Origin: an archaeon BMS3Abin17
GTDB lineage: Archaea; Nanobdellota; Nanobdellia; Pacearchaeales; GW2011-AR1
Direction: 5' to 3'
NCBI GenBank assembly: GCA_002897655.1
Contig: BDTJ01000044.1
Coordinates: 1,605-65,604 of the forward strand
DNA length: 64,000 nucleotides
Below, piece by piece: positions 34,452 through 59,254 of this stretch. Below the pieces are notes generated by a model. The model did not search any database, had not been told where the DNA came from, and was given only the letters and a program-made list of their open reading frames with translations. A program made the position numbers and the translations under genes. Each line of letters opens with the position of its first letter. The first letter of the stretch is position 1.

Positions 34452-34556
34452 AACAAACACAGTCCGAATAATCTCAAACTAACCGAATAGTTTTCTTTCT
34501 GTCCAAGAAGTGTACGAAAAGTAAAGGGTTAAAAATAAGGATTTCTTGAGAAATAA

Positions 34557-37500: not shown

Positions 37501-37706
37501 AAGAATTTATTAGTGAAATACAAAATAAAAATAAAGTAATGAGTATAGAAAAAGAAGCTGAGTTAATGGATTTTTTTGAAAAGAACAAAAAAGAAGTTTT
37601 AGAATTAGTTAATGAAGTTTCTAAAACAGAAAGAGAAATAGATGAGATGGTTTACAAGCTCTATGGGATAACAGACAAAGAAAAAGAGATTATTGAAAAG
37701 TCTTAA
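34557..37706 (+). CDS. Type IIG restriction-modification enzyme (MmeI-like): N-terminal PD-ExK endonuclease, gamma-class N6-adenine methyltransferase and C-terminal target-recognition region
   Basis: D81-x9-E91-x-K93 has the same spacing as the MmeI catalytic D-x9-E-x-K. MTase motif X (GVFYTPEYV), motif I (ILDSACGSGAFLI) and motif IV (NPPY). Length 1049 aa. Confidence 0.8.
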   Translation: MGKNLFNEKTIEKNIAKIEPTAKQSTASKRWIKLIETNQLQNEKSAYIEFANTILRDLLNYNINIEELKHEENYMEFLFKDSSKSNLVVFEAKGTKTKDLWAPQGRSVKIKETPVNQINYYLMHNKIPYGVLTNYKEFVLFKREEGDSKFHKIDFLEIKNNQDKLKEFIFIFSKESFEKDDTTKLYKDSIVEERNLTKEFYKLYHETRLMILKEFKESELENEICLHCTQLFLNRLMFIFFAEDTNLLDKRYFEIKLLEVLDKSSGVIDGHTNYIFGKIKSIFRELDKEIPKQIKGFNGELFKKEIDGRLSFKDYRSKPFFNEVKQSYRLDKNIELYENDKKIFNKHKNRLSKIIENILLMASFDFKSEVNVNILGHIFEQSISDIENLKEERISKRKQEGVFYTPEYVTEYICKNTIIPYLSKNGTNDINELIDEYSNNIEELEKKFKSIKILDSACGSGAFLIKATEVLFEIFEKIQFVKENYGDYEAKRGLKRKSNFKGQLTFKKWDEKDEIKNIIENNIYGVDINEESVEITKLSLFLKIARKNKKLIDLSGNIKQGNSLVSDDKIDKNLAFDWNKNFPEIMDNGGFDVVIGNPPYVFTREVEFNDKFKEYIANNYLNAKDSISKSHARQSGKINLYSLFLIKGKDLLRDNGVISFIIPNNLLRTTTYDIVRKQLLDNFDISEIVDMGTGVFEGVTASTIIIKMRKDSNKERRNKNLIEIIPNFENLRKKNKIEQINFLKNTSYAFNIVSNKSDRKLLDKIIEGCIDLGDIITIHAGGIATGKNKKGMIENWKKSEKHKPMLEGKDIKPFYPVFSERYILYEKKLLYRAREESIFLNPEKLITQRISGGLKPLVTSYDNEKYYTFNSTNTILSKNNEHSLKYILALLNSRLINWYYVSKFTNKSNLTVNISKTFLEKIPIKKISPEQQKPFIEKSDFMIDKNKKFYEIKKKFIKLVKYKYNLDKISRKLDTFYKLNFKEFISEIQNKNKVMSIEKEAELMDFFEKNKKEVLELVNEVSKTEREIDEMVYKLYGITDKEKEIIEKS

Positions 37707-38893: not shown

Positions 38894-38894
38894 T

Positions 38895-39680
38895 TTAATA
38901 TTTATCCGCTTTCTTTGGATAGATAACCCCCACAACAATATATGTTTTGAATCTATAATGTGTTCCAACAACAAAATAAAAATCTCTCTTGTTTGGGAGT
39001 ACATTAAAAAATTTATCCTTTACTTTTTCAAATACTACTTTTTCATCTTTGTATTTTCCCTGTTCCCTATATTTATCACAATTCCTATATAGTGCTATAA
39101 GCTCCCAATCCTCACACATAATTTTATGTTGGATAGGGCAAGATTCTGAGCAATTAAACTTATACGAAAAAAGATTTTTGGGAATCCATATTTTTACTGC
39201 AGACTCTCCATCAATTAATGTTGTTTGTTTTCCTTTCTCTTTAATCTTTTTATAATTTTCATTAGCCTCTTCCACAAAATCAATTAGTTTGTTAGGTTTT
39301 ATTATTCCTAAGGATACTTCTCTAGGATTTTTAGCATAAAGTTCTTCTAAAGAAATTATCTTTTGTTCTATTAATTCTTTAAGTTCTTTAAATGACGCTG
39401 GACCCAAGTCTTTAATTGTTTTTGTAATAATCTTACGACTTTCTGGTCTATGGTCAGAAGGTTCATCACTTTCAGTTTCATACTCTATCCAATTTTTCTT
39501 CTTGAAACTTTTCTCATTCCAAAATACTTCAAATGGTACAGGATATATTCTTCTTAATTCTCCCTTATCTGTTATTCCAGCTACACATACAAGATGTTCA
39601 TACTTTTTACTTACTATTGGATAAGTTTTTGTTAATACTAATAATTTTTCTTTCATTTTCATAAATTGTTTACTTTCCAA
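38895..39680 (-). CDS. hypothetical Cys-rich protein (CSESCPIQHKIMC...C cluster), middle gene of the cassette
   Basis: 261-aa ORF. Its stop lies 1 nt from the start of the nuclease gene, and it overlaps the upstream DUF488 gene by 22 nt. Confidence 0.45.
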   Translation of the reverse strand: MESKQFMKMKEKLLVLTKTYPIVSKKYEHLVCVAGITDKGELRRIYPVPFEVFWNEKSFKKKNWIEYETESDEPSDHRPESRKIITKTIKDLGPASFKELKELIEQKIISLEELYAKNPREVSLGIIKPNKLIDFVEEANENYKKIKEKGKQTTLIDGESAVKIWIPKNLFSYKFNCSESCPIQHKIMCEDWELIALYRNCDKYREQGKYKDEKVVFEKVKDKFFNVLPNKRDFYFVVGTHYRFKTYIVVGVIYPKKADKY

Positions 39681-40510
39681 CCTCTCTCCGCTAGTCGTTC
39701 AGCAATTATGCTCCTGTGACATGTTTTAAAATCTTTTTCAAAACACAACAATACTGTTTTTTTCCTTCTCGCTCTTCCTTCAATGTCTGAGATATTTTCT
39801 AAGACATCTGGGTCTTTTATATGTTTTTTATATTCTCTAAAAAATCTTTCATAATCCATGTCCTTATATAATTGATGTCTCACTTCTTTAGGAGAACCTA
39901 ATTGAGGCATATGTTTGTAAGTAATCCCAACTTCTTTTAATTTAGAACTTAGAATTGTTTTAGAAAATCCATTCTTTCTACTTAATGGAAGTTCTCTAAC
40001 ATCAATTAATTGTTGTACATTACTATCTTTAAGTTTCTTAATGAATTTTTCTATAGTGTATCCCTCATACCCAATAGTATAAATTGTATCATTTTCAGAA
40101 TTCCAAAAAAGATTGCCTCCAATCTTTATTCGTTTTAGTCCAATATCTTTTTCTAATAATCTAACCCATTTATTATTAGGGTTTTTTTGATGAAGATTTA
40201 ATTTATCCCTAATTTGTGTCCAAGTTAAACCAGCAGGATGTCTTTCAAGTATATTCTTTATAGAATCTTTAAATTCATCATAAAACATTTCTTCATCATT
40301 TTTACTTAGATTTTTTTTGGAAAGTGGTTTTAAAAACAATAAATCTTTTTTAATTTCATCTTGCAATTCAACTCCCTCTTTCCATCCTAATTGTTTTATT
40401 CTATCAGTAGGAATTACCAAAACCCATTTTACATATTTTTCATAATTAGGGTCATCCTTTTTTCTAGAAGATTGTTTTTGAAGTTTCATATCTTTTATCT
40501 TGGTACCCAT
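39659..40510 (-). CDS. DUF488-domain protein with an N-terminal ~130-aa extension (possible DNA-binding)
   Basis: C-terminal half matches the DUF488 signature (IYTIGYEG...LIDVRELP...LLCFEKDFKTCHRSIIAERL). Confidence 0.55.
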   Translation of the reverse strand: MGTKIKDMKLQKQSSRKKDDPNYEKYVKWVLVIPTDRIKQLGWKEGVELQDEIKKDLLFLKPLSKKNLSKNDEEMFYDEFKDSIKNILERHPAGLTWTQIRDKLNLHQKNPNNKWVRLLEKDIGLKRIKIGGNLFWNSENDTIYTIGYEGYTIEKFIKKLKDSNVQQLIDVRELPLSRKNGFSKTILSSKLKEVGITYKHMPQLGSPKEVRHQLYKDMDYERFFREYKKHIKDPDVLENISDIEGRARRKKTVLLCFEKDFKTCHRSIIAERLAERGWKVNNL

Positions 40511-40586
40511 TATTTAAAAGCTTATTGGTACCCACACCATATATATTTCTGGGTACCCAAATGTTTATAAAGGTCTGGGTACCCAT
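40501..40586. promoter_or_regulatory. four phased GGTACCCA boxes (24-26 nt spacing), each followed by an AT-rich TATA-like segment, in the divergent promoter between the DUF488 cassette and the transposase
   Basis: GGTACCCA at 40502, 40528, 40552 and 40578. The first copy overlaps the cassette's start codon. Confidence 0.5.
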
Positions 40587-40592
40587 TATATT

Positions 40593-41570
40593 GTGGTGAT
40601 AAGATATGACACTATGGAACAACAAACAAAAATATTCCAGAACACAGAAAACTCAAAACCAATCATAGCTTTGCAAAAGAACAAATATACTTTAGAGCAA
40701 GAAAAAGAGAGATTCATCAACAATATGTGTGATTTCATAGAACCACTCAATTTTGAGCAATTACAGGTTATGGGAAGACCAAGAGCTGATTTTAAGGGTA
40801 TAATAAAGGCAATTTTGTTGATGTCTTATAATAGCATGTCCTACAGGAGAACTCAATCAGATTTAAGAAAGATGCATGAAGAAGGATTAATTCAATATAT
40901 TCCTCCAAAAAGTACATTAAATGATTATGTTAATAATGAGAATACTAAAGGATTAATTGAAAGACTAATACAAATATCAGCGTTATTCTTTAATGAAAAT
41001 GAAGATACAACTATTTTAGATTCTACTTGGTTTGGTCAAAGAATGTATTCTGGAGGTTACAGAAAAGTTTATGATAAGAAAAATGCTCCATTGCAAAAAG
41101 TTAGAAAGCTTCATATTGCTTGTTTAAAAAATAGTAAGGTTATTGCTTATGCTAAAGCCACGGTTGGAACAAAAAATGACAGTCCTTTATTTAATGAAAT
41201 TGTCAATGCTATTGTAAAAAATGGTTTCCATATTAAAACAGTTTTGGCGGATGCTGGTTACTCAAGCAAAAACAATTATGCACTTTGTAAAGAACTTGGA
41301 ATTTTGAATGTTTTTATTGACTTCAAGAAGAATGCTACACTAAGGAGAGCTAAGAGTGATTTATGGAGAGAGAAACTTAGATTGTATAAAGAACAAAAAG
41401 AAATCTGGAATCAAACTTACAGATTTAGAGTAATTGTGGAGGGAATTTTTTCAGCAATTAAGAAAAAAAATATTAATTATCTTCGTTCTCGGAAGGAGAT
41501 TGCTCAGGATGTTGAGGTTCTTCTGAAGGCTCTGGTTTACAATTTGACGATAATTGGGAAATATTCTTAA
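40593..41570 (+). CDS. IS5/IS4-superfamily DDE transposase
   Basis: DDE triad regions ILDSTW, LADAGYSS and VEGIFSAIKK. Length 325 aa. Confidence 0.7.
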   Translation: MVIRYDTMEQQTKIFQNTENSKPIIALQKNKYTLEQEKERFINNMCDFIEPLNFEQLQVMGRPRADFKGIIKAILLMSYNSMSYRRTQSDLRKMHEEGLIQYIPPKSTLNDYVNNENTKGLIERLIQISALFFNENEDTTILDSTWFGQRMYSGGYRKVYDKKNAPLQKVRKLHIACLKNSKVIAYAKATVGTKNDSPLFNEIVNAIVKNGFHIKTVLADAGYSSKNNYALCKELGILNVFIDFKKNATLRRAKSDLWREKLRLYKEQKEIWNQTYRFRVIVEGIFSAIKKKNINYLRSRKEIAQDVEVLLKALVYNLTIIGKYS

Positions 41571-42201
41571 CTTCTTCAATTCCAGCAAAAAGAATCTTGT
41601 TATTTGTCCAATCCATCTTACAAGGAGTATAAAATCTAATTTCCTTTATTTTTGGTTCAAAATTGTCCCCTGAAATTTCTATTATTGCAAAATATCTTTT
41701 ATCTTCACAAATAAAATTTCTACCTCCTGTAGAAGAAAAAATAACTTCTTTTGTTGCACTATCAATCCAAAATAAATCACAAAATTCCCATCCCCCTTTA
41801 GGTGAAATATCTTTATTCTCTTTAAAAATAGGAATTAATTGATTAATATCTGATACTAAATTTATCCTCTCAGGGTCTATTCTAAACCCCATATCTCTTG
41901 GAGCACTAGACCATTTTAATACGTCTGGTTCATTCTTATCTAGCACATTATTTCTCTCTTCAGATTTAACAGACAACAGTTTTACCTTACAATTTCTAGC
42001 AACTGTTTTACCCTCATTAACAATTTTTATACGAAAAAGCATTCCCATTGAATTTAAAAAAGGGTAAATAGAATAAGGTTCGTAATTTCCAAATCCAATT
42101 TTTATAAGAGGTCTATCTTTCCAATCCCAAAATCTTTTTCCAAATAATGCAACAACAACAGCCAAAAAAGTTATTATTATTAAAATTACTGTTAAAACCA
42201 T
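41473..42201 (-). CDS. membrane-anchored hypothetical protein; acidic low-complexity C-terminal tail encoded within the transposase 3' region
   Basis: N-terminal TM helix followed by a soluble domain. Its last ~33 codons overlap the transposase C-terminus convergently. Confidence 0.4.
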   Translation of the reverse strand: MVLTVILIIITFLAVVVALFGKRFWDWKDRPLIKIGFGNYEPYSIYPFLNSMGMLFRIKIVNEGKTVARNCKVKLLSVKSEERNNVLDKNEPDVLKWSSAPRDMGFRIDPERINLVSDINQLIPIFKENKDISPKGGWEFCDLFWIDSATKEVIFSSTGGRNFICEDKRYFAIIEISGDNFEPKIKEIRFYTPCKMDWTNNKILFAGIEEVKNISQLSSNCKPEPSEEPQHPEQSPSENEDN

Positions 42202-46862: not shown

Positions 46863-47219
46863 TCATTCTAAACCTAAACTTATCTTAATAGCTAAATCAA
46901 CTTTATTCATGATAAGATTATCAAGATGACTTAACTTCTTAATAATTCTTCTTTTATCAATTGTTCTTATTTGATTAAGTAAAACTACAGAATCTTTTTC
47001 TAAATTTGAATCACTTTTTGATAAAATTACATTAGTTGGATATTCTTTTTCATAAACTTTAGAGGTTATAGGGGCAACAATTGTTAATGGACTAAATTTA
47101 TTTGATATGTTATTCTGGATAATAAGCGCTGGCCTAATTTTTCCTTGTTCCACTCCTTTAACTGGCTCAAAATTAACCAGAAATATATCTCCTCTTAATA
47201 TTTTTGCTACCATTCCCAA
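46863..47219 (-). CDS. mazF: MazF/PemK-family endoribonuclease toxin
   Basis: RGDIFLVNFEPVKGVEQGKIRPALII ... SPLTIVAPITS motifs. Confidence 0.8.
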   Translation of the reverse strand: MGMVAKILRGDIFLVNFEPVKGVEQGKIRPALIIQNNISNKFSPLTIVAPITSKVYEKEYPTNVILSKSDSNLEKDSVVLLNQIRTIDKRRIIKKLSHLDNLIMNKVDLAIKISLGLE

Positions 47220-47483: not shown

Positions 47484-48098
47484 TTAACCCTCAATAAAAG
47501 GAACAAAAACAAACCCAGGTATTTCTTCTTTTATTGTATAGTTATTCTTTATCTTCTTAATAGCTACAAGAGTTTGTTCATATCTTGAGCCAACAGGTGC
47601 AACAAGTATTCCGTTATCTTTTAATTGGTTTTGAATTGTCTTGGAAATCTTTTCACATGCTGCACTTATTAAAATTCTGTCAAAAGGGGCTTTTTCTTTT
47701 AATCCTTTAGAACCATTTTGATTGTATGATACTATATTTTTGTAATCCTTTAAATTATTCTTTGATTTTTCAGCAAGCTCTTTTATTCTCTCTATACCAT
47801 AAACCCTGCCTTTATCCCCAACAATCTCAGAAATAAGAGCAAGAACATAACCACATCCAGAGCCTAATTCAAGGACTTTCTGGCCTTTTTTCAGCTCAAG
47901 CATGCTCAACATCATAGCAATTGTATATGGCTGAGAGATTGTCTGGGCTTCACCTATTGGCAAAGCAGTATCTTCATAAGCATATTTTTTTAATTTGTCT
48001 GGTATAAAATTCTCACGTTTTACTTTTTCAAATGCATTTAGTATTCTTCTTGAGAATCCTTTTTGTTTTAATGAATTAATGAGGGCTTGTTTGTTCAT
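47484..48098 (-). CDS. pcm: protein-L-isoaspartate O-methyltransferase
   Basis: SQPYTIAMMLSMLEL and VLELGSGCGY SAM motifs. Confidence 0.85.
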   Translation of the reverse strand: MNKQALINSLKQKGFSRRILNAFEKVKRENFIPDKLKKYAYEDTALPIGEAQTISQPYTIAMMLSMLELKKGQKVLELGSGCGYVLALISEIVGDKGRVYGIERIKELAEKSKNNLKDYKNIVSYNQNGSKGLKEKAPFDRILISAACEKISKTIQNQLKDNGILVAPVGSRYEQTLVAIKKIKNNYTIKEEIPGFVFVPFIEG

Positions 48099-49060
48099 TT
48101 TCCTTGTTTTAATCCTGTTCTGCCTTGATTAAGCCAGTATTCATTTTCTTCAGAAGTGTTTTTATTAACAATCTTGTCAAAATTAGCGCATAATAAATGC
48201 ATTGCATGAGCTAATTCAATATATATTGGAAGAACATTTAGTTCTTCATTAGTTAATTTGATTGCTTTTTGATATTCTTTCAATAATATCTCTATATTAT
48301 CTTGACTATTCTTCTTATTAGCTGGATTAAAAAATAAATTGCAAGATAAAACTGCCAATTCTTGTATTCTTGGATAATAATTAGAAACTGAGAAATCTAT
48401 TAACCAAAGTTTATTTTGATTATCCTTCATAATATTTGTTACAATTAAATCCCCATGAACAAAGCAACGAGGTAGTTTTTCTATTTCAAGTTCATTGAAT
48501 TTTTTGACAAGAGGCCCAATTAACCCTAAATCTTCCTTAGATAACACACTTTTCTTTTTTTCAAACTCTTTAAGAAAATTAGTTACTGCCCATTCATCCT
48601 CCATGAATTTTGGTTTTAAGTCTATTGAATTAATAAGAGATACTTGTTTTGCAATAAACCTTATTTCATCTTTATTTAATTTCGCACCTGATTCAAAAAT
48701 TGTTTTGCCATTAATAAATCCCATCACACATAACCTTATGTTTGTTTTGTTGATTTTATTAGTATAAAGATATCCATTATCTAATTTATATAATTTAGGT
48801 GTTGCAATCTTGGCTTCAATAGCTTTTTCCATGATTTCCACATATCTATGGCAATCATCAATAGTTCTACTATTTGAGAATATTTTTACAAAGTATTTAC
48901 TTTTTGTTGTTTGAAGAATAAAATTAAAATCTTCGTAGCCCATTAGAATTATTTTATTTGATTTAAATCCTCCTAATTTGTAATCCTTGCAAATCTGTAG
49001 AGAGATATCCTTTAAATCCCCATTATAACTTATTCTTTTTTTGAATGATTTTTCTTTCAT
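48095..49060 (-). CDS. APH/choline-kinase-family phosphotransferase
   Basis: HGDLIVTNIM catalytic-loop and IDFS motifs. Translationally coupled to the upstream rad50 and downstream pcm. Confidence 0.5.
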   Translation of the reverse strand: MKEKSFKKRISYNGDLKDISLQICKDYKLGGFKSNKIILMGYEDFNFILQTTKSKYFVKIFSNSRTIDDCHRYVEIMEKAIEAKIATPKLYKLDNGYLYTNKINKTNIRLCVMGFINGKTIFESGAKLNKDEIRFIAKQVSLINSIDLKPKFMEDEWAVTNFLKEFEKKKSVLSKEDLGLIGPLVKKFNELEIEKLPRCFVHGDLIVTNIMKDNQNKLWLIDFSVSNYYPRIQELAVLSCNLFFNPANKKNSQDNIEILLKEYQKAIKLTNEELNVLPIYIELAHAMHLLCANFDKIVNKNTSEENEYWLNQGRTGLKQGK

Positions 49061-49061
49061 A

Positions 49062-52000
49062 TTAAACCTTCAAAGTAATTATCTTTGAGACTCCGTCATG
49101 CATGCTTACACCATAAAGATTTGAGGCATTTGTAATCACTTCGTCATTGTGGGTTATTACTATATACTGGCCTTTTTGCATGTATTTTCTGAGAAGGCCT
49201 GCAAGTCTCTCAGAATTTCTTTTATCCAATGCTGCATCAATCTCATCAAGTATGTAAAAACAATACGGGCTGTATTCCTGAATTGCAAAGATAAGGGATA
49301 ATGCCACAATAGTCTGTTCTCCTCCTGAAAGAGAGGTAACATCAAAGTATTTTCCATGCCCTGTCTTGACAATTATATTCACCCCCCCTTCAAAAGGGTC
49401 TTTTCTATTTTCCAATTCTAATGAAACCCGCCCCTTTGTGCTTAATTGAGAGAAATTCCTTGAGAAGGTCTCATTTAATGAATCAAGGGTTTTAAAGAAA
49501 GTCTTTTTCTTTTTAATATCAATCTCATGAATAATCTTCATGATTCCTTCTTTTTCCTTGTTGATTATCTCTACTTTTTCTTTTATCAAGTCATATTCTT
49601 TTTTTATTGAATCATAGACTTCTAATGAACGCAGATTAACGGTTCCAATTTTTGATAATATTTCTTGTGTTCTTTCCAGCTTATGAATAAGAGACTCTTT
49701 TGTTGCTTTTATTATCTCAACATTTGGATATCCCAGCATATCTGTCTCTAAATTCTCAATTGCTGCATCAATCTTTGCTTTTTCTATTTTTAATAAATTA
49801 GTATCCTGCTCAAAATTATGAATTGAATTTTGCCTGGTCAAAATAAAAGACTCAAAATCCCTTATTTTCTTCTGCAGGCCTTCTCTTTCAGAGATTAGTT
49901 TTTGGAATTTTCTGGTAAGGGCCTCTTCCTTGCCTTTTTTATCTTCTAAAAAACTCTCTTTTTCTTCAATACTCTCCTTTAGGTCAGAAACATCCTCTTT
50001 GATATCTTCTTCATCACTAGTTAATTGTTTTAAAGCTGCTTTTGAACGGTCTAATTCTCTTTTCTTAAATGAAGTCTCTGAATCCAAGGTCTCTTTGCTT
50101 CTCATAGATATCTCCTGAATCTCTATTCTTGCAGTCTCATATTTTTGCTCCAGATTAGAATTCCTGTCAGATTTGCTTTCAAGAGATTTTCTTCTTTTTT
50201 CTAATTCAATCATCTCTTTCTTAGAGTCCTCAATTTTTTCATGCAACATTTTTATCTGCTCTTTTTTATCATTGATTCCGAATATTTTAATCTGGTCAGA
50301 CTTTCTACTAGATATCTCTGAATCTATTTCATCTATCTTTTTGTTTAAGATTGCTTTGCTATTGCCTATTTGCTTAAACTCTTTTTCTGATTCTTCTATT
50401 TGCTTTTTAAGATGGTTTATCCTTGGATTAACTTCTTTATGAATTGAAGAAATATGGTCTTTAGTTATCTTGCTTTTGCACAATGGACAAATGTCCATTT
50501 TTGAGATATTTTCCCTAATTTTATTTTGCTTGTCTATTTCATAGCTATTTGTGTAAGATATTTTTTCAAGCTCTTTTTCTCTTTTTTCCAAGTTTTCAAT
50601 CTTTTGTTTATTATTAGATAAGGAAACTTTAAGAGAGTCTAATTTGCCTGAATCTGTGTTTTTGTCAAATAATTCCCTTGTAAGAACCTCTATTTGCTTG
50701 ATTAAATAATCAGACTCTGTTTTATAACTCTGCAAAAGAGAGTTTTTGTCCTCCATTCTCTCTTTAATTGATTTTAATTCTGACTTAGTCATATAAAACT
50801 CTTTTCTTTGCTTTTCCAGATTATCAAGCTCTTGTTTTTTCTCTTCTATGTCTTTTTGCTTTTTTGAAGCAGATGATTTAGAACTCTGCAGTTCTTTTAT
50901 TTCTGATTCTAAATCCCTTATTTTTTGAGCCAGATCTATTCTTTGATTTTCAACTTCAGAGAGCTTTCTTTCAGAATTATCCAACCTTACATTTAAACCA
51001 GCTAATTCTGCTCTTAAATTAGCTATTTCCTGGTTCAATTTTTCCTGCTCTATTCCAGTAGATTTTTGAATATTTTGGTTTATTGAACTTATTTTTGATT
51101 CAAAGCTTTCAATAGTAACCCTTGTATTTGTTATTATTTTTTTTATCTTATTTATCTCATTATCTTTTTCCAGAATTCGCTTGTCCATCTTTTCTCTTTC
51201 TCTTTTTCTATTTGTTAAATCAGAATGAATTATGCTTGCTCTGTATCTTTTGGCATCTTTTTCAAGTTTCTTAAATCTCAAGGCCTCCTGCCTTTCTCTT
51301 TCAAGATTATTCAAATATGCTGTTCTCTCCCTTAGTATTGATGAAACTTCTTTTAATTTATCCCCTGTTCTTTCTAATTCTTTCAGAGACTTTTGCTTTC
51401 TTACCTCATATATTGAGATTCCAGAAACCTCTTCTATTATTTTTCTTCTCTCTTCTGTATGCATTCTTACAAAATTCTGAATCTCTCCCTGCAAGATAAT
51501 ATTAAATCCATTAGGGTCTATTCCTGCCTGTGCCAATAAGGTCAACACCTCTTGTCTTGTCTTTGTCTCATTATTTATCCTGTAGATACTCTGCCCGTTT
51601 TTTCTTACAATCCTCTTTATTGAAATCTCATTATTATCTATAGAAAAAATCTTATCAGAGTTATCAAAAACAATCTCAACTGATGCTTCTTTTGCAGGAG
51701 ACAATGCCTTTGTTCCCAGAAATATCAGGTTTTTTGCTTTTGCTGCCCTCATTGACTTGATTGAGAGTCTTCCCAATACAAAACACAAAGCATCTGTTAT
51801 GTTTGAATTATGGACAAAGATATTATTAGCCAAAAAGTTGTGATGTTCATCTACACATAAATCATAAACCCACCCTTCTCCATTTATCTCGCTTATATCT
51901 GTTATTTCGTCCCAGAAAATATCAGAATACGCCAAAAAATTTAATTTTTTTATTAATTCAGAGTTTCCTTTAAACAATTGTTTTGACAATAACTGAAGAC

Positions 52001-53516
52001 CATTTCTTGAAGGAAAGCATTGATTATAACAGTATGCCTCAAGGAGGGGAAATTGCATCTTTGTATGTTTTACATTAATCTTTAATTCCTTAGTTATGTC
52101 TTTAACTAAGTTGTTGATTCCTATTAAATCTGTATTCGGATTGCTCTTCTTTTTTAAGTAATCTTTTATCCTCTGTCTTTTAACTTGGTGAATTAATTGA
52201 ATACTGTCGTCAAATATTCTGAAGTTATCAACCCCAGTAATTATGATTGTTTTGTATTTTCCTGTGAATCCTGATGATTTTATTCCCTTAATTTGGTCTC
52301 TTGTTGAAAACAGAATTCCTAATCTTAGCAGGCAAGTCTCTATGCCTTGTGCTAATGGTGCGCTTTTAGTTGTAATTTCTATGGAACTTTTAGAAACATA
52401 TCCATCCCCGCAGTAAAGTCCGTTAAGTAATTCCGATACCTCCTTACCTGATGAATGTTTTAATAAGATATTTGATATTTTTTTCCCTGAAGTATTAGAT
52501 GCCATCCCAAGTTTTGACAATATCTTTTTTAGTGGTTCAGAATAAATTATTACATCCCAGCAATTAGGCTTGTATTCCCTGACTAAAGGTTTCTTGTTAA
52601 ATAACTTTTCAACCAGAGTTATATAATCATCCACAATATTTTTATCCCCATTAGTAAACCATATCTGACTTGATTCAGCCAGCCTGCCTTCAGCTAAAAG
52701 ATAACCAAAAAACCTTGAAAATTCCGGAGAATTTGTAAAATTAAAACTTGTTTTTTTCCCATTAGAAATCAACTCATTAATCAAATTGGTTATCTCTAAA
52801 TCTGATAAATTCGCGTATCTGAGTATTCTAATCAAATAACAAAAATTAATTGATTGCTTATCCAATAATCCCTTAATCACATAATAAGAGATGCCTATTT
52901 TCTCTGCTAATTGCTTCCAGATTAGATTATCTTTTATTGACCTCAAAATTAAAGAATATTCCTCTTTATAGGGCACATAAATCCCATCATTTTCACTAAT
53001 CAAACTTAAAAGTTCTGTAAAGGTTTTATCTTTGGTCTCAAAATTTAATGCCCTCGGGACAGCAATCCTAACTCCCTGCTTTAATTCGTCAGCTCTTGCT
53101 TCTACAATCTGATTGTTTTTTAATATGAATAAAGGGTGATATTTTGTTGTTTTTACTGCTCTTCCAGACCTGGTTTTTATTGAAAGAATCTTCTCAGGGG
53201 ATGTTCTTTTAACAAATGATTTTACCTTTGTTCTTTCTGTTTTAAGGGTCTTTAAATTCAGGCTAATGACTTCTAAACCATCCCCTGGGATTAAAAAACC
53301 ATCTTCTGTTTTTACTGCTTTGTTCAATCTGGAATTAATTATATTGTCTATTCTCTCACTAGTGCCATCTCCAAGAGTTACAATAGAATCTCCGGTCAGG
53401 CATTTCCCACTTCCATTAGGGCCAAGAACTACATTTATCCCCTGATTAAAAGGTATTTCTGTCTTTCTGATAAAGCTTTTAAATCCGTGCATCACCAGTT
53501 TTTTGATATATGGCAT
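49062..53516 (-). CDS. rad50: Rad50/SbcC-family ATPase with zinc hook, interrupted by an intein in the Walker A motif
   Basis: GPNGSGK|C...HN|SNITDALCFVLG. CPLC zinc hook in mid coiled-coil. LSGGE signature, Walker B (ILDEIDAALD) and H-loop. The extein is 952 aa. Confidence 0.8.
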   Translation of the reverse strand: MPYIKKLVMHGFKSFIRKTEIPFNQGINVVLGPNGSGKCLTGDSIVTLGDGTSERIDNIINSRLNKAVKTEDGFLIPGDGLEVISLNLKTLKTERTKVKSFVKRTSPEKILSIKTRSGRAVKTTKYHPLFILKNNQIVEARADELKQGVRIAVPRALNFETKDKTFTELLSLISENDGIYVPYKEEYSLILRSIKDNLIWKQLAEKIGISYYVIKGLLDKQSINFCYLIRILRYANLSDLEITNLINELISNGKKTSFNFTNSPEFSRFFGYLLAEGRLAESSQIWFTNGDKNIVDDYITLVEKLFNKKPLVREYKPNCWDVIIYSEPLKKILSKLGMASNTSGKKISNILLKHSSGKEVSELLNGLYCGDGYVSKSSIEITTKSAPLAQGIETCLLRLGILFSTRDQIKGIKSSGFTGKYKTIIITGVDNFRIFDDSIQLIHQVKRQRIKDYLKKKSNPNTDLIGINNLVKDITKELKINVKHTKMQFPLLEAYCYNQCFPSRNGLQLLSKQLFKGNSELIKKLNFLAYSDIFWDEITDISEINGEGWVYDLCVDEHHNFLANNIFVHNSNITDALCFVLGRLSIKSMRAAKAKNLIFLGTKALSPAKEASVEIVFDNSDKIFSIDNNEISIKRIVRKNGQSIYRINNETKTRQEVLTLLAQAGIDPNGFNIILQGEIQNFVRMHTEERRKIIEEVSGISIYEVRKQKSLKELERTGDKLKEVSSILRERTAYLNNLERERQEALRFKKLEKDAKRYRASIIHSDLTNRKREREKMDKRILEKDNEINKIKKIITNTRVTIESFESKISSINQNIQKSTGIEQEKLNQEIANLRAELAGLNVRLDNSERKLSEVENQRIDLAQKIRDLESEIKELQSSKSSASKKQKDIEEKKQELDNLEKQRKEFYMTKSELKSIKERMEDKNSLLQSYKTESDYLIKQIEVLTRELFDKNTDSGKLDSLKVSLSNNKQKIENLEKREKELEKISYTNSYEIDKQNKIRENISKMDICPLCKSKITKDHISSIHKEVNPRINHLKKQIEESEKEFKQIGNSKAILNKKIDEIDSEISSRKSDQIKIFGINDKKEQIKMLHEKIEDSKKEMIELEKRRKSLESKSDRNSNLEQKYETARIEIQEISMRSKETLDSETSFKKRELDRSKAALKQLTSDEEDIKEDVSDLKESIEEKESFLEDKKGKEEALTRKFQKLISEREGLQKKIRDFESFILTRQNSIHNFEQDTNLLKIEKAKIDAAIENLETDMLGYPNVEIIKATKESLIHKLERTQEILSKIGTVNLRSLEVYDSIKKEYDLIKEKVEIINKEKEGIMKIIHEIDIKKKKTFFKTLDSLNETFSRNFSQLSTKGRVSLELENRKDPFEGGVNIIVKTGHGKYFDVTSLSGGEQTIVALSLIFAIQEYSPYCFYILDEIDAALDKRNSERLAGLLRKYMQKGQYIVITHNDEVITNASNLYGVSMHDGVSKIITLKV
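51807..53402 (-). other. intein (532 aa) with LAGLIDADG homing-endonuclease domain, inserted between K38 and S of the Rad50 P-loop
   Basis: Begins with Cys and ends with HN followed by Ser. Two LAGLIDADG motifs (FFGYLLAEGRL, LNGLYCGDGYV). The flanks reconstitute GPNGSGKSN. Confidence 0.75.
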
Positions 53517-53665: not shown

Positions 53666-54366
53666 TTAAAACTTCAACTTCCTCTGCTCTAATTTCTCAA
53701 ATGCCCTCTTCCATGTGCTCCAGGTCCTCCTGAATATTCCCTCTTTTTGATGTTTATGCGCATATTTCTCAAGGAACTTAATTGTGGCTGGGTCAGAAGT
53801 ATATCCAGATCCAATCTCATCCCCATATCTTTCTTTAATCTTGTCCATTTCTCTTTCTCTAACACTTTTTGCCAAAATTGATGCAGCAGAAACAGCAAGG
53901 TGATTTTTATCTGCCTTGTGTTCACAGGAAATTTCTAAATTTGAAAGATTCTTTATTTTTGTCTTTAAGAAATCCTGCCACTTTGAAATTGTTGGGGAAG
54001 GGCAATCAACAATTACCTTTACTTTTTTATACCCTTTATTGATTTTGTTTATTATCTTGGCACACATAATTGCTTCTAACTCATTTAGTTTTGTGCCATT
54101 AACACTTGTGCTATCTATTTCATTTGGATATACTTTTATTATCTCAAAGGTTTCTGCTTTTTCTTTGATTATTTTTTCCAAGAATTCTCTTCTTTTCTGA
54201 GTTAATTGCTTACTGTCCCTTACACCAAGTCTTTTGAATTCTTTTTCAACTTTTTCATCAATCAAACACCCTGCCAAAACCATTGGGCCAATGACTGGAC
54301 CTTAAGGCGAACAATAATATAATAAAAATTATACTACAATTCTCTACCTGCGTCGTCAATGCCCAA
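53666..54366 (-). pseudogene. rnhB: RNase HII gene disrupted by a 41-nt stop-containing insertion (54302-54342) that separates the catalytic GIDDAGR segment (TTG start at 54366) from the rest (GPVIGPMVLAG...)
   Basis: Removing nt 54302-54342 joins ...GIDDAGR to GPVIGPM... in frame. The body has the RNase HII motifs DSKQL and AVSAASILAK. Confidence 0.5.
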
Positions 54367-54368
54367 GA

Positions 54369-55403
54369 TTAAATTGCAAGAATGCTCTTTTTTACTGGCA
54401 ATTTTATCCATTTTCCATCTTTTTTATTCCTCCTTATTAAATTTAGTTTCTCAAGTTCTTTGAGCCTTCTAAATGAAGCCTTCCAACAAACATTAAATTT
54501 CTTTGCAAGCTCTGCAGTCTGTTTAGGTCTATCTAAGAAAAGTAGATATCCCTTTTTAAGCTTTGATATAATAATGAGATTCTTATCATTTGTCCAATAA
54601 TCAATGCTTCCCACTCTAAAATTATGTACTCTCCTTTGTTTTTTTAATAAAACCAGTACATCCTGTGTCCTTGCAAATGATCTTTTAAATTTATTTGATA
54701 AATCTCGCGTTGTTAAGGGTTTTTCTAAAATAGTATAAATTTTCTTAATTAAATAATGTTTTTCATAATGTTCTTGTTTAAAATCATTATAAACTCTCCA
54801 AAATTTCTCTTTTTTTAAGGGATGTAAGTCTGCTAATTTTAATTTTGCAAAAACATCCCAATTAAATTTCTTAGTAATTACATAATTTCTATTTCCTGTC
54901 TCAAATGAAAAACTTATATTTAAAGAATTCAATAAATCATCTATAAACTTTTTTCTTTCTTTCTGAGATACTCTTAGAACACGGACACTTTTTCTGCCAA
55001 CATGTACATTACCTTCTCCAGCAAAAAATCCTTTTAATATATTTGGGAAGAATTCTTTCTTATCCAAAAAAAATTTTACAATCTTCTTCCACTCCTTAAC
55101 CATCTCAACTGAAGCAAATCTAAGAATAAAGAAAGGTTTTATTGCCTTTTTATGAACATAATACTTTACTACACAGTTTTTATAATGTATTTTAACCTTT
55201 TTTTTGTCTTTAGAGTAAACATATATTCTAGGATTATAATTATGTTTGTAAAATATCTTATTAATTGTTCTATAAAATAAATTTACTAAATCCCAACAAT
55301 TATTTGTGAATGTAATCTCTGATTTAGTTTTGTTATCTCCTTCTGCTAACCATAAACCAACACATTTTGCGATATTTTCATTTGGGGCTAATAACCTGTC
55401 CAT
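54369..55403 (-). CDS. free-standing double-motif LAGLIDADG endonuclease-like protein with C-terminal winged-helix domain
   Basis: VGLWLAEGD and LKGFFAGEGNV motifs. C-terminal HTH-like ELAKKFNVCWKASFRRLKELEKLNLIRR. Its stop abuts the rnhB start. Confidence 0.55.
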   Translation of the reverse strand: MDRLLAPNENIAKCVGLWLAEGDNKTKSEITFTNNCWDLVNLFYRTINKIFYKHNYNPRIYVYSKDKKKVKIHYKNCVVKYYVHKKAIKPFFILRFASVEMVKEWKKIVKFFLDKKEFFPNILKGFFAGEGNVHVGRKSVRVLRVSQKERKKFIDDLLNSLNISFSFETGNRNYVITKKFNWDVFAKLKLADLHPLKKEKFWRVYNDFKQEHYEKHYLIKKIYTILEKPLTTRDLSNKFKRSFARTQDVLVLLKKQRRVHNFRVGSIDYWTNDKNLIIISKLKKGYLLFLDRPKQTAELAKKFNVCWKASFRRLKELEKLNLIRRNKKDGKWIKLPVKKSILAI

Positions 55404-57749: not shown

Positions 57750-57951
57750 GCCTCGATCGCATAATGGTATTGCACGAGATTGCTAATGCCCAACTTTCCT
57801 TACCGGGAGAACGAAAGTTCTCAGGGCCCAAAGAACCATGGGTTCTTAGGGGGAAAGAAAGTTCGGCGCTCAAAGAACCACATCAGGCTCTGCGAGCATA
57901 GTAAACATCTCGATCCTTCGGGATGCGCAGGTTCGATTCCTGCTCGAGGCG
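57750..57951 (+). tRNA. tRNA-Ser (anticodon GCT) with a 121-nt intron at the canonical 37/38 position
   Basis: Acceptor GCCTCGA/TCGAGGC plus discriminator G. Anticodon stem CGAGA/TCTCG split by the intron (57786-57906). Long variable arm ATCCTTCGGGATG. T-arm GCAGG-TTCGATT-CCTGC. Confidence 0.7.
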
Positions 57952-57989
57952 TATTCACCCTGGTAAAAAGAGTTCTGATATATTTGAAA

Positions 57990-58619
57990 ATGATAAACTC
58001 CTTAAAATCTCTAAGAATCAGTAAATTAGTTGGAAATCTCTCTAAAACAGTATTTAGTGAAGGTTTGCCAGATGAGACTATTCCTTTTGAAGATTTGAAA
58101 AGGCTAAATTTTGATTTAGATATAGATCCATCTCTTTGGAGGAAGTATAAGAGAAGTCATAATTTTAGATACTCTGGAGCTTCAACAGCAGAACATTTGA
58201 CAATGGGCTTAATGAGATTATTATTTGAAAATAAAAATTCTCCAGATATAAATTATTCTACATTGAGAGAAGTATTATCAGAAAAAGATTCAACAAGGAT
58301 TGCTGTTTTAAATGCTCATGAAGGGAATGTTAAAGGTAATTGGATTTATTCTTTTAAGGGGTCTCAGGCCCCAGTCCAGAAGTGGATAGATGAAATTAGT
58401 TCTAGGAATTTGAAATCCAGAAAAAAATATGGGGCGTTATTTGTATGCTGCTGTAATGGAGACTCATTAATTCCTGATTATACAGAAATACCTATATTTT
58501 ATCTTAAAGGAATATTTGAAAGTGGAGGCAAATATCAAAAAGTCCTTGTGTTTTACCGCACCTTAAAAGGTGCGGTTTGTTTGGACTTTAGGATGTCCAA
58601 GGATTCATCCACACACTAA
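57990..58619 (+). CDS. hypothetical protein; start moved downstream of the tRNA, and the 3' end runs into repeat copy C
   Basis: The tracked ORF 57780.. begins inside the tRNA intron. The first Met after the tRNA is used instead. Confidence 0.3.
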   Translation: MINSLKSLRISKLVGNLSKTVFSEGLPDETIPFEDLKRLNFDLDIDPSLWRKYKRSHNFRYSGASTAEHLTMGLMRLLFENKNSPDINYSTLREVLSEKDSTRIAVLNAHEGNVKGNWIYSFKGSQAPVQKWIDEISSRNLKSRKKYGALFVCCCNGDSLIPDYTEIPIFYLKGIFESGGKYQKVLVFYRTLKGAVCLDFRMSKDSSTH

Positions 58620-58660: not shown

Positions 58661-59254
58661 TTACTCAATAACAACAAAGTTGTTTCTTCCTGATTTCTTT
58701 GCTTTATAGAGTGCCTTATCCACTCTAAGCTTCATTTTTCTTTTTGTATCGTTTTTACCTCTAAACTGAGTTACCCCCCCACTTACAGTAAGACCATGTT
58801 TTTTTAGAACAGAATCTGAATTAATAACTTTTCTTAATCTTATAGTTAATTTTCTTGCCTTTACTAAATTTGTCGCCGGAAGCAGAATAATAAACTCTTC
58901 TCCCCCAAATCTTGCAAGAATATCTGGTTTTCTTATGTGTCTTTTTAAGGCACTTGAAAGATTCCCTAATAACTCATCTGCTCTAATATGCCCATAAGTG
59001 TCATTTATTTTCTTAAAAAAATCAATATCAATTATTATTAAAGATAAATCTTCTTTTGTTCTCTTGGCTCTCTCAATTCCAAGGTCAAAGACATTTTCAA
59101 AAAATTTACTGTTATACAACCCTGTTTTTTCATCATGAGTTGCCTCTTCATACAGCAAGGAAATAGATTCCATTATTACTTCAAATAATTCTTCAACCTT
59201 TTTCCTAAATTTTGGATCTAAAGAAGATATCCTCCTCTTTATTTTTCTATCCAT
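58661..59254 (-). CDS. stand-alone GGDEF-domain diguanylate cyclase (GGEEF active-site variant)
   Basis: DEKTGLYN, LIIIDIDFFKKINDTYGH, RFGGEEF, TVSGGV and ADKALYKAKKSGRN motifs span the whole GGDEF fold. Length 197 aa. Confidence 0.85.
   Translation of the reverse strand: MDRKIKRRISSLDPKFRKKVEELFEVIMESISLLYEEATHDEKTGLYNSKFFENVFDLGIERAKRTKEDLSLIIIDIDFFKKINDTYGHIRADELLGNLSSALKRHIRKPDILARFGGEEFIILLPATNLVKARKLTIRLRKVINSDSVLKKHGLTVSGGVTQFRGKNDTKRKMKLRVDKALYKAKKSGRNNFVVIE

What the first reader, a model, noticed from the sequence alone, without database searches (positions are those of the whole stretch)
49062..53516. Rad50-like ATPase carrying a LAGLIDADG intein in the P-loop, with no adjacent mre11 and an unusual operon context
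A 532-aa intein splits GPNGSGK|SN. It has Cys at position 1, a terminal HN followed by Ser, and two LAGLIDADG motifs. The 952-aa extein has a CPLC zinc hook, which indicates Rad50/SbcC rather than SMC. Archaeal rad50 is normally adjacent to mre11 (plus herA and nurA). Here it is translationally coupled downstream to an APH-family kinase and a protein-isoaspartyl methyltransferase, and no mre11 is in the window.
Basis: partly seen in the sequence, partly recalled or inferred. Interest (0 to 1): 0.6.

Follow-up and report, generated by a model that had tools for sequence, protein, structure and literature searches.

The report
SMC with Rad50-type zinc hook, plus intein
This gene encodes the chromosome-organising SMC ATPase of a tiny DPANN archaeon, not Rad50; besides an ordinary self-splicing intein in its ATP-binding loop, it and its whole lineage have swapped the "universal" SMC hinge for a Rad50-style zinc hook, a natural version of a chimera so far made only in the laboratory.

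Summary

The Rad50 interpretation is not supported.
- **Head and arms are SMC.** SMC_prok_A scores 535 bits against at most 107 for any Rad50 model. The Pyrococcus Smc head scores 355 bits against at most 57 for Rad50.
- **The hinge is missing.** The roughly 150-190-aa SMC hinge is replaced by about 12 residues carrying CPxC.
- **The hook is real.** CPxC is the only invariant motif of the central region. A profile of that region matches the P. furiosus Rad50 zinc hook at E = 1e-10.
- **It is lineage-wide.** Hook-SMCs form one clade (200/200 NJ bootstraps) among hinge-bearing archaeal SMCs and occur in at least 80 Pacearchaeota/Nanoarchaeota-type MAG loci. RNase HII lies upstream in 77 of 87 loci.

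The intein is one of a family that sits at the same P-loop site in both hook- and hinge-type SMCs, and SMC inteins are already reported. Partner proteins (ScpA/ScpB) were not found, and zinc-mediated dimerisation is inferred. I found no paper describing a natural zinc-hook SMC.

The parts
49062..53516 (-). smc precursor gene (1484 aa plus stop): hinge-less, zinc-hook SMC interrupted by an intein
   Evidence: ORF. Pfam SMC_N at 1e-55 and NCBIfam SMC_prok_A at 4e-160 on the spliced extein. Identical to NCBI 'chromosome partition protein Smc [archaeon BMS3Abin17]' apart from the start codon.
53403..53516 (-). N-extein (aa 1-38), ending in the first part of Walker A, GPNGSGK
   Evidence: The N-terminus MPYIKKLVMHGFKSF is shared with homologues.
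51807..53402 (-). 532-aa class-1 intein with a LAGLIDADG homing endonuclease, inserted between K38 and S39 of Walker A
   Evidence: Pfam Intein_splicing at 4e-31 and LAGLIDADG_3 at 7e-17. TIGR01445/TIGR01443 N- and C-terminal splicing regions. Inteins 46-61% identical sit at the same site in other SMCs.
52680..52709 (-). LAGLIDADG motif 1 (FGYLLAEGRL)
   Evidence: Conserved in the 49%-identical intein of P0121.
52395..52427 (-). LAGLIDADG motif 2 (LNGLYCGDGYV)
   Evidence: The best LAGLIDADG_3 stretch covers intein residues 322-401.
49065..51806 (-). C-extein (aa 571-1484): rest of the N-terminal head half, both coiled-coil arms, the hook, and the C-terminal head half
50502..51416 (-). N-terminal coiled-coil arm (extein about 169-473)
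   Evidence: AF2 model helices 169-340, 359-415 and 424-473. Aligns to SMC profile positions up to 481, just before the hinge.
50454..50498 (-). Zinc-hook apex, MDICPLCKSKITKDH (CPLC at 50478..50489), in the place of the SMC hinge
   Evidence: CPxC are the only invariant columns in 25 diverse hook regions. The profile hits Pfu Rad50 hook structures 6zff and 1l8d at 1e-10 and 4e-10. PF04423 is hit by 24/25 members. The AF2 hairpin model has pLDDT 93.6, and 1l8d is the top Foldseek hit, weakly.
49443..50462 (-). C-terminal coiled-coil arm (extein about 487-826), with breaks at 602-617, 730-740 and 759-764
   Evidence: AF2 model. Full-length SMCs realign from residue about 487-491 onward. 5xei, the Smc head plus coiled coil plus joint, aligns with TM 0.77.
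49143..49331 (-). C-terminal ATPase motifs: signature LSGGEQ, Walker B and D-loop FYILDEIDAALD, and H-loop ITHN
   Evidence: Invariant across 76 family members.
53666..54283 (-). RNase HII gene, the conserved upstream neighbour on the same strand
   Evidence: Pfam RNase_HII at 8e-37. Upstream on the same strand in 77/87 related loci. Also near hinge-type smc in L094 and L095.
48095..49060 (-). APH-family kinase gene, 1 nt after the smc stop; specific to this genome
   Evidence: Pfam APH at 5e-15. Junction. Its cluster has no member in the other 86 loci. The APH gene near smc in L001 is only marginally similar.
47484..48098 (-). Protein-L-isoaspartate O-methyltransferase (pcm), a recurrent downstream neighbour
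   Evidence: TIGR00080 at 2e-62. Downstream on the same strand in 32/87 loci, often directly adjacent.

Best explanation
This is the smc gene of a Pacearchaeota-type DPANN archaeon (NCBI: archaeon BMS3Abin17). Two things have happened to it.

(1) A mobile intein. A 532-aa LAGLIDADG intein sits inside the Walker A codons. After translation it should excise itself through Cys1, the block-B His, the terminal Asn and Ser+1. That restores GPNGSGKS and so restores ATP binding. Its endonuclease would copy the intein into intein-less smc alleles at the conserved P-loop sequence. The anatomy is shown here; splicing and homing are inferred.

(2) A hinge-to-hook replacement. The mature 952-aa protein has an SMC ATPase head and SMC-type antiparallel arms of about 305-340 residues. 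The roughly 150-190-aa hinge domain is absent. In its place the arms fold back at a 12-residue apex, C-P-x-C-x3-[IL]-[TD]-x-[ED]-H, which matches the Rad50 zinc hook. This is shown. Two protomers most likely share one Zn2+ through their four cysteines, giving the permanent apex dimer that the hinge normally provides. This is inferred by analogy with Rad50.

The replacement happened once, in the ancestor of a large DPANN clade. The gene kept its chromosomal position next to rnhB, so it is most likely the orthologue of canonical smc. I infer that it does the usual SMC job of ATP-driven chromosome organisation and segregation. The engineered B. subtilis Smc carrying the Pfu Rad50 hook shows that such a design works.
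For: SMC identity:
- SMC_prok_A and SMC_prok_B score 535 and 518 bits in two stretches that skip the hinge. Rad50 models score at most 107 bits and ASRP 139 bits.
- PDB phmmer gives Pyrococcus Smc heads up to 355 bits and Rad50 at most 57 bits, with no hinge structure hit.
- Foldseek on the AF2 model puts condensin Smc4, the P. yayanosii Smc head plus joint, and Smc5/6 first.
- All ATPase motifs are invariant in 76 members.

Hinge absent, hook present:
- No PF06470 in the extein or in hook relatives. The nearest relatives of about 1150 aa have it at about 1e-33.
- Among 151 sequences there are 97 with a hinge, 36 with a hook and none with both.
- CPxC is the only invariant part of a region otherwise 14-57% identical.
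- The region's profile hits the Pfu Rad50 hook at 1e-10 and the human one at 0.003. PF04423 is hit by 24/25 members, best 1e-7.
- The hook hairpin model has pLDDT 93.6.

Arms retained:
- P-loop to centre is 448 aa (range 441-461) in hook forms, against a median of 453 in hinge forms.

One origin and orthology:
- The hook clade has 200/200 NJ bootstraps among hinge-bearing archaeal SMCs.
- rnhB lies upstream in 77/87 hook loci, and is also beside hinge-type smc in L094 and L095.

Breadth:
- More than 119 proteins at 65-70% identity, 80 GTDB loci, and representatives down to 39% identity named Pacearchaeota.

Precedent:
- B. subtilis Smc with its hinge replaced by the Pfu Rad50 hook grows normally (PMC5344682). 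The reverse swap works in fission-yeast Rad50 (PMC6969161).

Intein:
-. Archaeal SMC inteins and P-loop insertion sites are reported (PMC4760082).
Against: - Zinc binding and dimerisation at the hook are not tested. Only monomers could be modelled, and the Foldseek match of the hook model to 1l8d is weak (E = 0.02).
- No kleisin or kite partner was found. There is no ScpA or ScpB within about 10 kb of smc in 87 hook loci, whereas a euryarchaeal locus has smc-scpA-scpB in a row. The whole genomes could not be searched.
- I could not show that these genomes lack a second, hinge-bearing SMC or a separate Rad50-Mre11.
- The sister group of the hook clade is unresolved (44/200 bootstraps). The tree is NJ on heads only and has no Rad50 or ASRP outgroup.
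- The extein scores below the NCBIfam SMC equivalog cut-offs (535 against 729 bits), as expected without a hinge.
- Full-length AF2 confidence is moderate (pLDDT 74.9, pTM 0.37).
Confidence: 0.85

Rival explanations
1. It is the Rad50/SbcC orthologue of this archaeon, a double-strand-break repair ATPase whose Mre11 partner is encoded elsewhere.
For: A central CPxC hook with Rad50-like flanking residues. The length of 952 aa is close to archaeal Rad50 at about 880 aa. Rad50 models do give significant though low scores.
Against: SMC models outscore Rad50 models five-fold, and Smc heads outscore Rad50 heads 355 to 57 bits in PDB. Walker B is the SMC-type DEIDAALD. The head tree nests the protein among hinge-bearing SMCs. 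The arms align with SMC arms right up to the hook. No Mre11-type gene was seen in the window or in the annotated related loci.
Confidence: 0.03
2. It is a lineage-specific SMC paralogue, functionally like ClsN/Sph (ASRP) or another SMC-like protein. It would coexist with a canonical hinge SMC and have a specialised role such as domain compaction, repair tethering or defence.
For: Zinc-hook SMC-related proteins (ASRPs) exist in archaea (PMC9389158). The ASRP model gives a partial hit of 139 bits. Co-occurrence with a hinge SMC could not be excluded with the tools available. No scpAB lies next to the gene.
Against: The ASRP score is far below its 300-bit cut-off, and the protein is 952 aa rather than about 600. 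The protein is 33-40% identical to canonical SMCs over the head and both arms. It sits in a core-gene syntenic block (primase, AP endonuclease, rnhB, EF-2, EF-1a) conserved across 87 loci. rnhB also neighbours hinge-type smc. No representative carries both a hook and a hinge, and the nearest hinge forms come from other DPANN lineages.
Confidence: 0.1
3. The CPxC apex is only a structural cap of the coiled-coil hairpin, or a redox or monomeric metal site. It would not be an intermolecular zinc hook, and the protein would dimerise only through its heads or arms.
For: No dimer model or biochemistry is available. Related Pacearchaeota short forms (779-804 aa) lack both hook and hinge, yet persist at the same locus. 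An apex dimeriser may therefore not be indispensable.
Against: Only two cysteines lie near the apex, too few for an intramolecular Zn site. The motif and its flanks match the Rad50 hook family specifically, and there four cysteines from two chains bind one zinc (established for PDB 1L8D). CPxC is strictly invariant while its surroundings diverge to 14% identity.
Confidence: 0.05

Closest known systems
Prokaryotic Smc of the Smc-ScpAB condensin (for example Pyrococcus yayanosii/furiosus Smc; TIGR02169/TIGR02168)
   Same: The ABC head with all motifs, up to 355 bits to the Pyrococcus Smc head. Long antiparallel arms of near-canonical length, with a joint-like break. 33-40% identity to DPANN hinge SMCs. 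Chromosomal neighbourhood with rnhB.
   Different: No hinge domain (PF06470). The arms meet at a CPxC zinc hook instead. The score is below the equivalog cut-off. scpA and scpB are not adjacent and were not found.
Rad50 zinc hook (P. furiosus Rad50; PDB 1L8D and 6ZFF; Pfam PF04423)
   Same: The apex motif CPxC-x3-[IL][TD]x[ED]H on an antiparallel coiled coil. Profile E = 1e-10.
   Different: The rest of the protein is not Rad50. Head scores against Rad50 are five- to six-fold lower than against SMC, and no Mre11 partner gene lies nearby.
Engineered Smc(Zh): B. subtilis Smc with its hinge replaced by the Pfu Rad50 zinc hook (Burmann et al. 2017, PMC5344682)
   Same: The same architecture of SMC head and arms plus a Rad50-type hook. 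The chimera supports normal growth, so the design is functional.
   Different: That protein is artificial. This one is natural, ancient and fixed in a whole archaeal clade. Its function and partners are untested.
Archaea-specific SMC-related proteins (ASRP: ClsN/coalescin, Sph1/2; NF045487)
   Same: Archaeal coiled-coil ABC ATPases with a zinc hook (PMC9389158).
   Different: ASRPs are about 600 aa and form their own family. The extein scores 139 bits against a 300-bit cut-off, but 535 bits on SMC.
P-loop inteins of archaeal ATPases, including SMC (Novikova et al. 2016, PMC4760082)
   Same: A class-1 intein with a LAGLIDADG endonuclease inserted in Walker A. The same site is occupied in 14 of 150 SMC representatives, of both hook and hinge type.
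   Different: Nothing essential. This is one more allele, 46-61% identical to the other Cys1 SMC inteins.

Membership tests
SMC (prokaryotic Smc, condensin-type) | SMC-type ABC ATPase head (Walker A GxNGxGKS, Q-loop, signature LSGGE, Walker B DE plus D-loop, H-loop) | tested here: met
   Pfam SMC_N 189 bits. SMC_prok_A 535 bits. Pyrococcus Smc head 355 bits. Motifs invariant in 76 members. Walker A is complete only after intein excision.
SMC (prokaryotic Smc, condensin-type) | Two long antiparallel coiled-coil arms (about 300-350 aa each) with a joint near the head | tested here: met
   AF2 model helices 169-473 and 487-826, with C-arm breaks at 730-764. 5xei (head plus coiled coil plus joint) aligns with TM 0.77. 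Arm spans equal those of hinge SMCs. This rests on prediction, not experiment.
SMC (prokaryotic Smc, condensin-type) | Hinge dimerisation domain (PF06470) between the arms | tested here: not met
   No PF06470 hit in the extein or in hook relatives, while P0176, P0180 and P0183 have it at about 1e-33. Of 36 hook sequences, none has a hinge.
SMC (prokaryotic Smc, condensin-type) | Score above the NCBIfam equivalog cut-off (TIGR02169 729 bits; TIGR02168 567 bits) | tested here: not met
   535 and 518 bits in two stretches. The hinge part of the profile is unmatched.
SMC (prokaryotic Smc, condensin-type) | Phylogenetic placement of the head within SMC | tested here: met
   NJ tree of heads plus proximal arms. 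The hook clade (200/200 bootstraps) lies among hinge-bearing archaeal SMCs. No Rad50 or ASRP outgroup was included.
SMC (prokaryotic Smc, condensin-type) | Kleisin (ScpA) and kite (ScpB) partners | tested here: inconclusive
   None in the window ORFs scanned. None in 1.36 Mb around 87 hook-smc loci, using genuine archaeal ScpA and ScpB as queries. The two weak hits were false. Whole genomes were not searchable.
Rad50/SbcC | CxxC zinc hook at the apex of the coiled coil | tested here: met
   CPxC is invariant. PF04423 is hit by 24/25 members. The profile hits 6zff and 1l8d at 1e-10.
Rad50/SbcC | Rad50-type head (equivalog score at or above cut-off; DEPT-type Walker B) | tested here: not met
   Best Rad50 model scores 107 bits against a 1000-bit cut-off. 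PDB Rad50 heads score at most 57 bits. Walker B is DEIDAALD.
Rad50/SbcC | Partner Mre11/SbcD nuclease gene, usually adjacent (with herA and nurA in archaea) | tested here: not met
   Absent from the window ORFs scanned, from the flanks beyond the window, and from the annotated related loci L001-L004, L007 and L008. No such conserved neighbour appears in the 87-locus clustering. Presence elsewhere in the genome was not tested.
ASRP (ClsN/Sph) | NF045487 equivalog at or above 300 bits; about 600-aa protein | tested here: not met
   139 bits, matching mainly the C-terminal head. The protein is 952 aa.
Class-1 intein with LAGLIDADG homing endonuclease | Block A Cys/Ser1, block B TxxH, block G His-Asn, a nucleophile at +1, and in-frame insertion in a conserved host motif with intein-less orthologues | tested here: met
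   C1, TKYH, HN|S. Intein_splicing at 4e-31, TIGR01445 and TIGR01443. More than 100 intein-less orthologues have an uninterrupted GPNGSGKSN.
Class-1 intein with LAGLIDADG homing endonuclease | Two LAGLIDADG motifs with acidic catalytic residues | tested here: met
   LLAEG and YCGDG. LAGLIDADG_3 at 7e-17 in two stretches.
Class-1 intein with LAGLIDADG homing endonuclease | Protein splicing and homing activity | not testable with these tools
   Needs expression and cleavage assays.

The most novel reading that the evidence does not exclude
In this reading, Pacearchaeota-type DPANN archaea run their chromosomes with an SMC that has no hinge and perhaps no ScpAB partners. It would be the only long-armed SMC-superfamily ATPase in a reduced genome. 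Such a protein might combine SMC-type DNA organisation with Rad50-type hook-mediated tethering, or be a living intermediate between the two architectures. Some members have gone further and lost even the hook (the 779-804-aa forms at the same locus). That would make this clade a natural deletion series for asking what the apex of an SMC is for.
Probability: 0.15. Interest if true: 0.85.

Novelty: new variant of a known kind. Interest (0 to 1): 0.6.

Why it matters
Current reviews separate the two great coiled-coil ABC ATPase families by their dimerisation module and their partners. SMC has a hinge plus kleisin and kite. Rad50 has a zinc hook plus Mre11 (for example PMC10586767). What the hinge does beyond dimerisation, such as acting as a DNA gate, binding DNA or talking to the heads, is a long-running question.

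Laboratory chimeras showed that the two modules can be exchanged (PMC5344682, PMC6969161). Here evolution appears to have made the same exchange once and kept it in a large, widespread archaeal lineage, with arm length tightly conserved. That supports the view that the fold of the apex is irrelevant while arm geometry matters.

It also supplies natural sequences, including still shorter hook-less derivatives, for biochemical and structural tests. It shows too that a CxxC hook cannot be used on its own to call Rad50 in genome annotation.

The intein part is ordinary. It adds one more allele to a populated SMC P-loop insertion site.

Tried and rejected
**Readings rejected**
- Rad50 identity, on HMM, PDB, fold and tree evidence.
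- ASRP/ClsN identity: 139 bits against a 300-bit cut-off.
- CPLC as a chance motif, rejected by conservation.

**Kleisin hunt (nothing found)**
- An archaeal ScpA motif regex found nothing.
- phmmer with genuine archaeal ScpA and ScpB from L095, against all six-frame segments of 96 loci, gave two weak hits. Pfam showed these to be a wHTH-nucleotidyltransferase and a TrmB regulator.
- Unannotated ORFs beside hinge-type smc in L005, L093 and L094 gave no ScpA-like hit and are unrelated to each other.
- Conserved unannotated neighbour clusters, read by eye, looked like a TrmB regulator, a methylase, a tRNA synthetase and membrane proteins.

**Look-ups and searches that led nowhere**
- Looking up the NCBI protein P0001 on contigs failed. 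The contig was reached through neighbouring genes instead.
- Literature searches for a natural zinc-hook SMC in DPANN, Pacearchaeota or Nanoarchaeota returned nothing relevant.
- Supplementary tables of the intein survey were not held.

**Weak or unresolved results**
- Foldseek of the hook hairpin ranks the Rad50 hook first, but only at E = 0.02, because helical hairpins are generic.
- The sister group of the hook clade could not be resolved (44/200).
- The APH kinase near smc in L001 is not an orthologue of the window's APH.

**Not used**
- I did not use the third large homology search. No available query would have targeted Pacearchaeota ScpA, Rad50 or hinge proteins among only 120 listed hits.

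Full report
**1. The observation**

The minus-strand ORF at 49062..53516 encodes 1484 aa. Cutting it at GPNGSGK|CLTGD...NIFVHN|SNITDAL gives a 532-aa insert (window 51807..53402) and a 952-aa host protein.

The insert has the marks of a class-1 intein:
- Cys1, a block-B TKYH, and His-Asn followed by Ser+1.
- Two LAGLIDADG motifs, LLAEG and YCGDG.
- Pfam Intein_splicing at 4e-31 and LAGLIDADG_3 at 7e-17. The NCBIfam N- and C-terminal splicing-region models also match.

CPLC sits at extein residues 478-481, the exact middle. The smc stop is followed after 1 nt by the start of an APH-family kinase gene. The stop of that gene overlaps the start of a protein-isoaspartyl methyltransferase gene.

The 1484-aa start is the right one: homologues begin MxYIKKLVM, and the NCBI record starts 8 codons later. 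An independent assembly contains the same gene.

**2. Whether it is Rad50 or SMC**

The spliced extein scores as follows.

| Model | Bits | Curated cut-off |
|---|---|---|
| SMC_prok_A | 535 (E = 4e-160) | 729 |
| SMC_prok_B | 518 | 567 |
| Five Rad50 equivalogs | 74-107 | 700-1087 |
| ASRP | 139 | 300 |

Other lines of evidence agree:
- Against PDB sequences the best matches are Pyrococcus Smc head constructs, up to 355 bits. Eukaryotic SMC1-4 follow. Rad50 heads reach only 57 bits.
- An AlphaFold2 model built on 76 family members (pLDDT 74.9) is matched best by condensin Smc4 and by the P. yayanosii Smc head plus coiled coil plus joint (TM 0.77). Rad50 ranks 11th.
- Walker A (once spliced), the Q-loop, LSGGEQ, the SMC-type Walker B and D-loop DEIDAALD, and the H-loop are invariant in the family.

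The head and arms are therefore SMC. NCBI in fact names this very protein "chromosome partition protein Smc [archaeon BMS3Abin17]".

**3. What is unusual: no hinge, and a hook in its place**

The SMC profiles match in two stretches. Residues 3-474 align to profile positions 1-481. Full-length SMCs realign only from about residue 487 onward. In those SMCs the corresponding points lie 130-220 residues further along.

No SMC_hinge (PF06470) is detectable. The nearest relatives of about 1150 aa (33-40% identical) have it at about 1e-33. Among the 150 best 50%-identity cluster representatives plus the extein, 97 have a hinge, 36 have a central CPxC, and none has both.

In an alignment of 25 hook regions that are only 14-57% identical, the only invariant columns are C, P and C of CPxC. 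A profile of that alignment finds the two P. furiosus Rad50 zinc-hook structures at E = 1e-10 and 4e-10, and the human Rad50 hook at 0.003. The match extends beyond the cysteines: CPLCKSKITKDH against CPVCGRELTDEH. Pfam Rad50_zn_hook is hit by 24 of the 25, best 1e-7.

The region folds in silico into a confident antiparallel hairpin (pLDDT 93.6) with the CPxC loop at the tip. Its top Foldseek hits are the Rad50 hook, although weakly at E = 0.02.

Arm length is preserved and tightly constrained. P-loop to centre is 441-461 residues in hook forms, against a median of 453 in hinge forms. The hinge has been cleanly replaced by about 12 residues that look like a Rad50 hook. I cannot decide whether the hook came from rad50 by recombination or arose by convergence.

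**4. How widespread it is, and whether it is the orthologue**

- The word-indexed search lists 119 intein-less proteins of 943-982 aa at 65-70% identity. They come from MAGs named Pacearchaeota, Nanoarchaeota or "archaeon".
- The exhaustive representative search extends the full-length hook forms to 39% identity, still in Pacearchaeota.
- On an NJ tree of heads plus proximal arms the hook forms are monophyletic (200/200 bootstraps). They lie among hinge-bearing SMCs from Woesearchaeota, "Nanoarchaeia" and "DPANN group" MAGs. The exact sister group is unresolved.

The gene lies in a core-gene block that recurs across 87 loci.

| Neighbour | Position relative to smc | Loci (of 87) |
|---|---|---|
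| RNase HII | immediately upstream, same strand | 77 |
| A surface protein | downstream | 53 |
| DnaG-type primase | downstream | 50 |
| D-aminoacyl-tRNA deacylase | upstream | 34 |
| pcm | downstream, same strand | 32 |
| EF-1a | downstream | 32 |
| AP endonuclease | downstream | 27 |
| EF-2 | downstream | 21 |

RNase HII also lies next to hinge-type smc in a DPANN locus (L094) and in a euryarchaeal smc-scpA-scpB locus (L095). This positional conservation, together with the tree, makes orthology with canonical smc the most economical reading. I could not search whole genomes for a second SMC.

**5. The context claimed to be unusual**

There is no mre11, herA or nurA in the window ORFs scanned, or in the genes called just beyond either end of the window. 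For an SMC gene this is expected.

The rnhB-smc-pcm arrangement is a lineage synteny. The APH kinase wedged between smc and pcm occurs only in this genome. An APH gene near smc in L001 is not its orthologue. I see no evidence for a functional link between these neighbours and SMC.

**6. The intein**

Three metagenomic SMC fragments carry inteins 47-49% identical at exactly the same GPNGSGK|C site. Fourteen of the 150 representatives have an intein at this site, and they fall into two classes:
- A Cys1 class, 33-61% identical to this intein. It is found in both hook-type and hinge-type hosts.
- A Ser1 class, about 30% identical.

Intein and extein have the same G+C content, 0.32. Inteins in archaeal SMC, and insertion in P-loops generally, are already described (PMC4760082). 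This part is a new member of a known kind.

**7. Mechanism proposed**

- Shown: the domain anatomy, motif conservation, lineage distribution and synteny.
- Inferred:
  - The precursor splices and so regenerates Walker A.
  - The endonuclease homes to the conserved P-loop-coding sequence.
  - Two mature chains share one Zn2+ through four cysteines at the apex, as in Rad50. This replaces hinge dimerisation.
  - The ATPase heads engage and disengage at the other end of arms about 45 nm long.
  - The complex organises and segregates the chromosome like Smc-ScpAB.

Feasibility is supported by experiment. B. subtilis Smc with the Pfu Rad50 hook in place of the hinge "supported normal growth", and its activity still depended on arm length (PMC5344682). 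The converse swap works in fission-yeast Rad50 (PMC6969161).

The weakest link is the partners. No ScpA or ScpB was found within about 10 kb in any of 87 loci, even with genuine archaeal queries. This says nothing about the rest of these genomes.

**8. Comparison with what is known, and novelty**

A 2023 review states the accepted dichotomy: SMC has a hinge plus kleisin and kite, and Rad50 has a zinc hook plus Mre11 (PMC10586767). Zinc hooks outside Rad50 are known in the distinct, shorter ASRP/ClsN/Sph family (PMC9389158) and in Lamassu LmuB.

Eight full-text searches found no description of a natural hinge-less, hook-bearing SMC. That library excludes most subscription papers, so prior mention cannot be ruled out.

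I file the protein as a new variant of a known kind. By head, arms, phylogeny and locus it is an SMC. It fails one textbook defining feature, the hinge, and carries the defining apex of the sister family.

**9. Caveats**

- MAG names in public records are inconsistent; some hook-bearing MAGs are labelled Woesearchaeota.
- The tree is distance-based and has no outgroups.
- The structure predictions are of monomers only.
- Function, zinc binding, splicing and partners are all untested.

Noticed in passing
P0167, P0169, P0170, P0179 (representatives); locus L096 6001-8415: Pacearchaeota SMC relatives of only 779-804 aa (41-45% identical) have neither a hook nor a hinge. They lack about 150-170 central residues, that is the distal arms plus the apex. 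They nest inside the hook clade and sit at the same locus, with RNase HII upstream and pcm nearby. How they dimerise at the apex is unknown.
   Followed up: partly
window 54369..55403 (-); L096 3384-3950: A free-standing 344-aa ORF lies just upstream of rnhB. It has a weak LAGLIDADG_3 match, an Lrs14-like HTH at its C-terminus, and similarity to the intein part of an RpoA'' model. It is unique among the 87 loci by clustering. However, L096 has a 188-aa LAGLIDADG_3 ORF in a similar position upstream of RNase HII.
   Followed up: partly
window 57750..57951 (+): Rfam calls a tRNA spanning 202 nt (40.3 bits), which implies an intron of about 130 nt. ARAGORN finds nothing there. The mechanical ORF at 57780..58619 overlaps it and is probably spurious.
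   Followed up: partly
window 34000..41600: A low-GC stretch (25% at 34-38 kb, against 32% overall) carries an MmeI-like type IIL restriction-modification fusion (34557..37706). Next to it are a PD-(D/E)XK nuclease (37703..39004), a DUF488 protein (39659..40510) and an IS-type DDE transposase (40593..41570). It is probably an acquired defence island.
   Followed up: no
window 58661..59254 (-): A 197-aa GGDEF (diguanylate-cyclase) domain protein, which as far as I know is unusual for archaea. Homologues lie upstream of smc in 12 related loci.
   Followed up: no
window 46863..47219 (-): A MazF/PemK-type toxin gene lies between the conserved surface-protein gene and pcm. Its cluster has members in only 2 loci.
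   Followed up: no
L095 5001-10451; L094 1922-8365: RNase HII lies beside hinge-type smc as well. It is convergent after smc-scpA-scpB in a euryarchaeal MAG, and 2.4 kb upstream in a DPANN MAG. The rnhB-smc neighbourhood may therefore be older than the hook clade.
   Followed up: partly
P0150, P0195, P0196, P0201, P0206, P0223, P0239 (representatives): A second class of SMC P-loop inteins, starting with Ser instead of Cys, occupies exactly the same insertion point. It is about 27-33% identical to the window intein.
   Followed up: partly
window 9673..10590 (+): A Fic/DOC-domain protein (Pfam 1.4e-20) sits among housekeeping genes.
   Followed up: no
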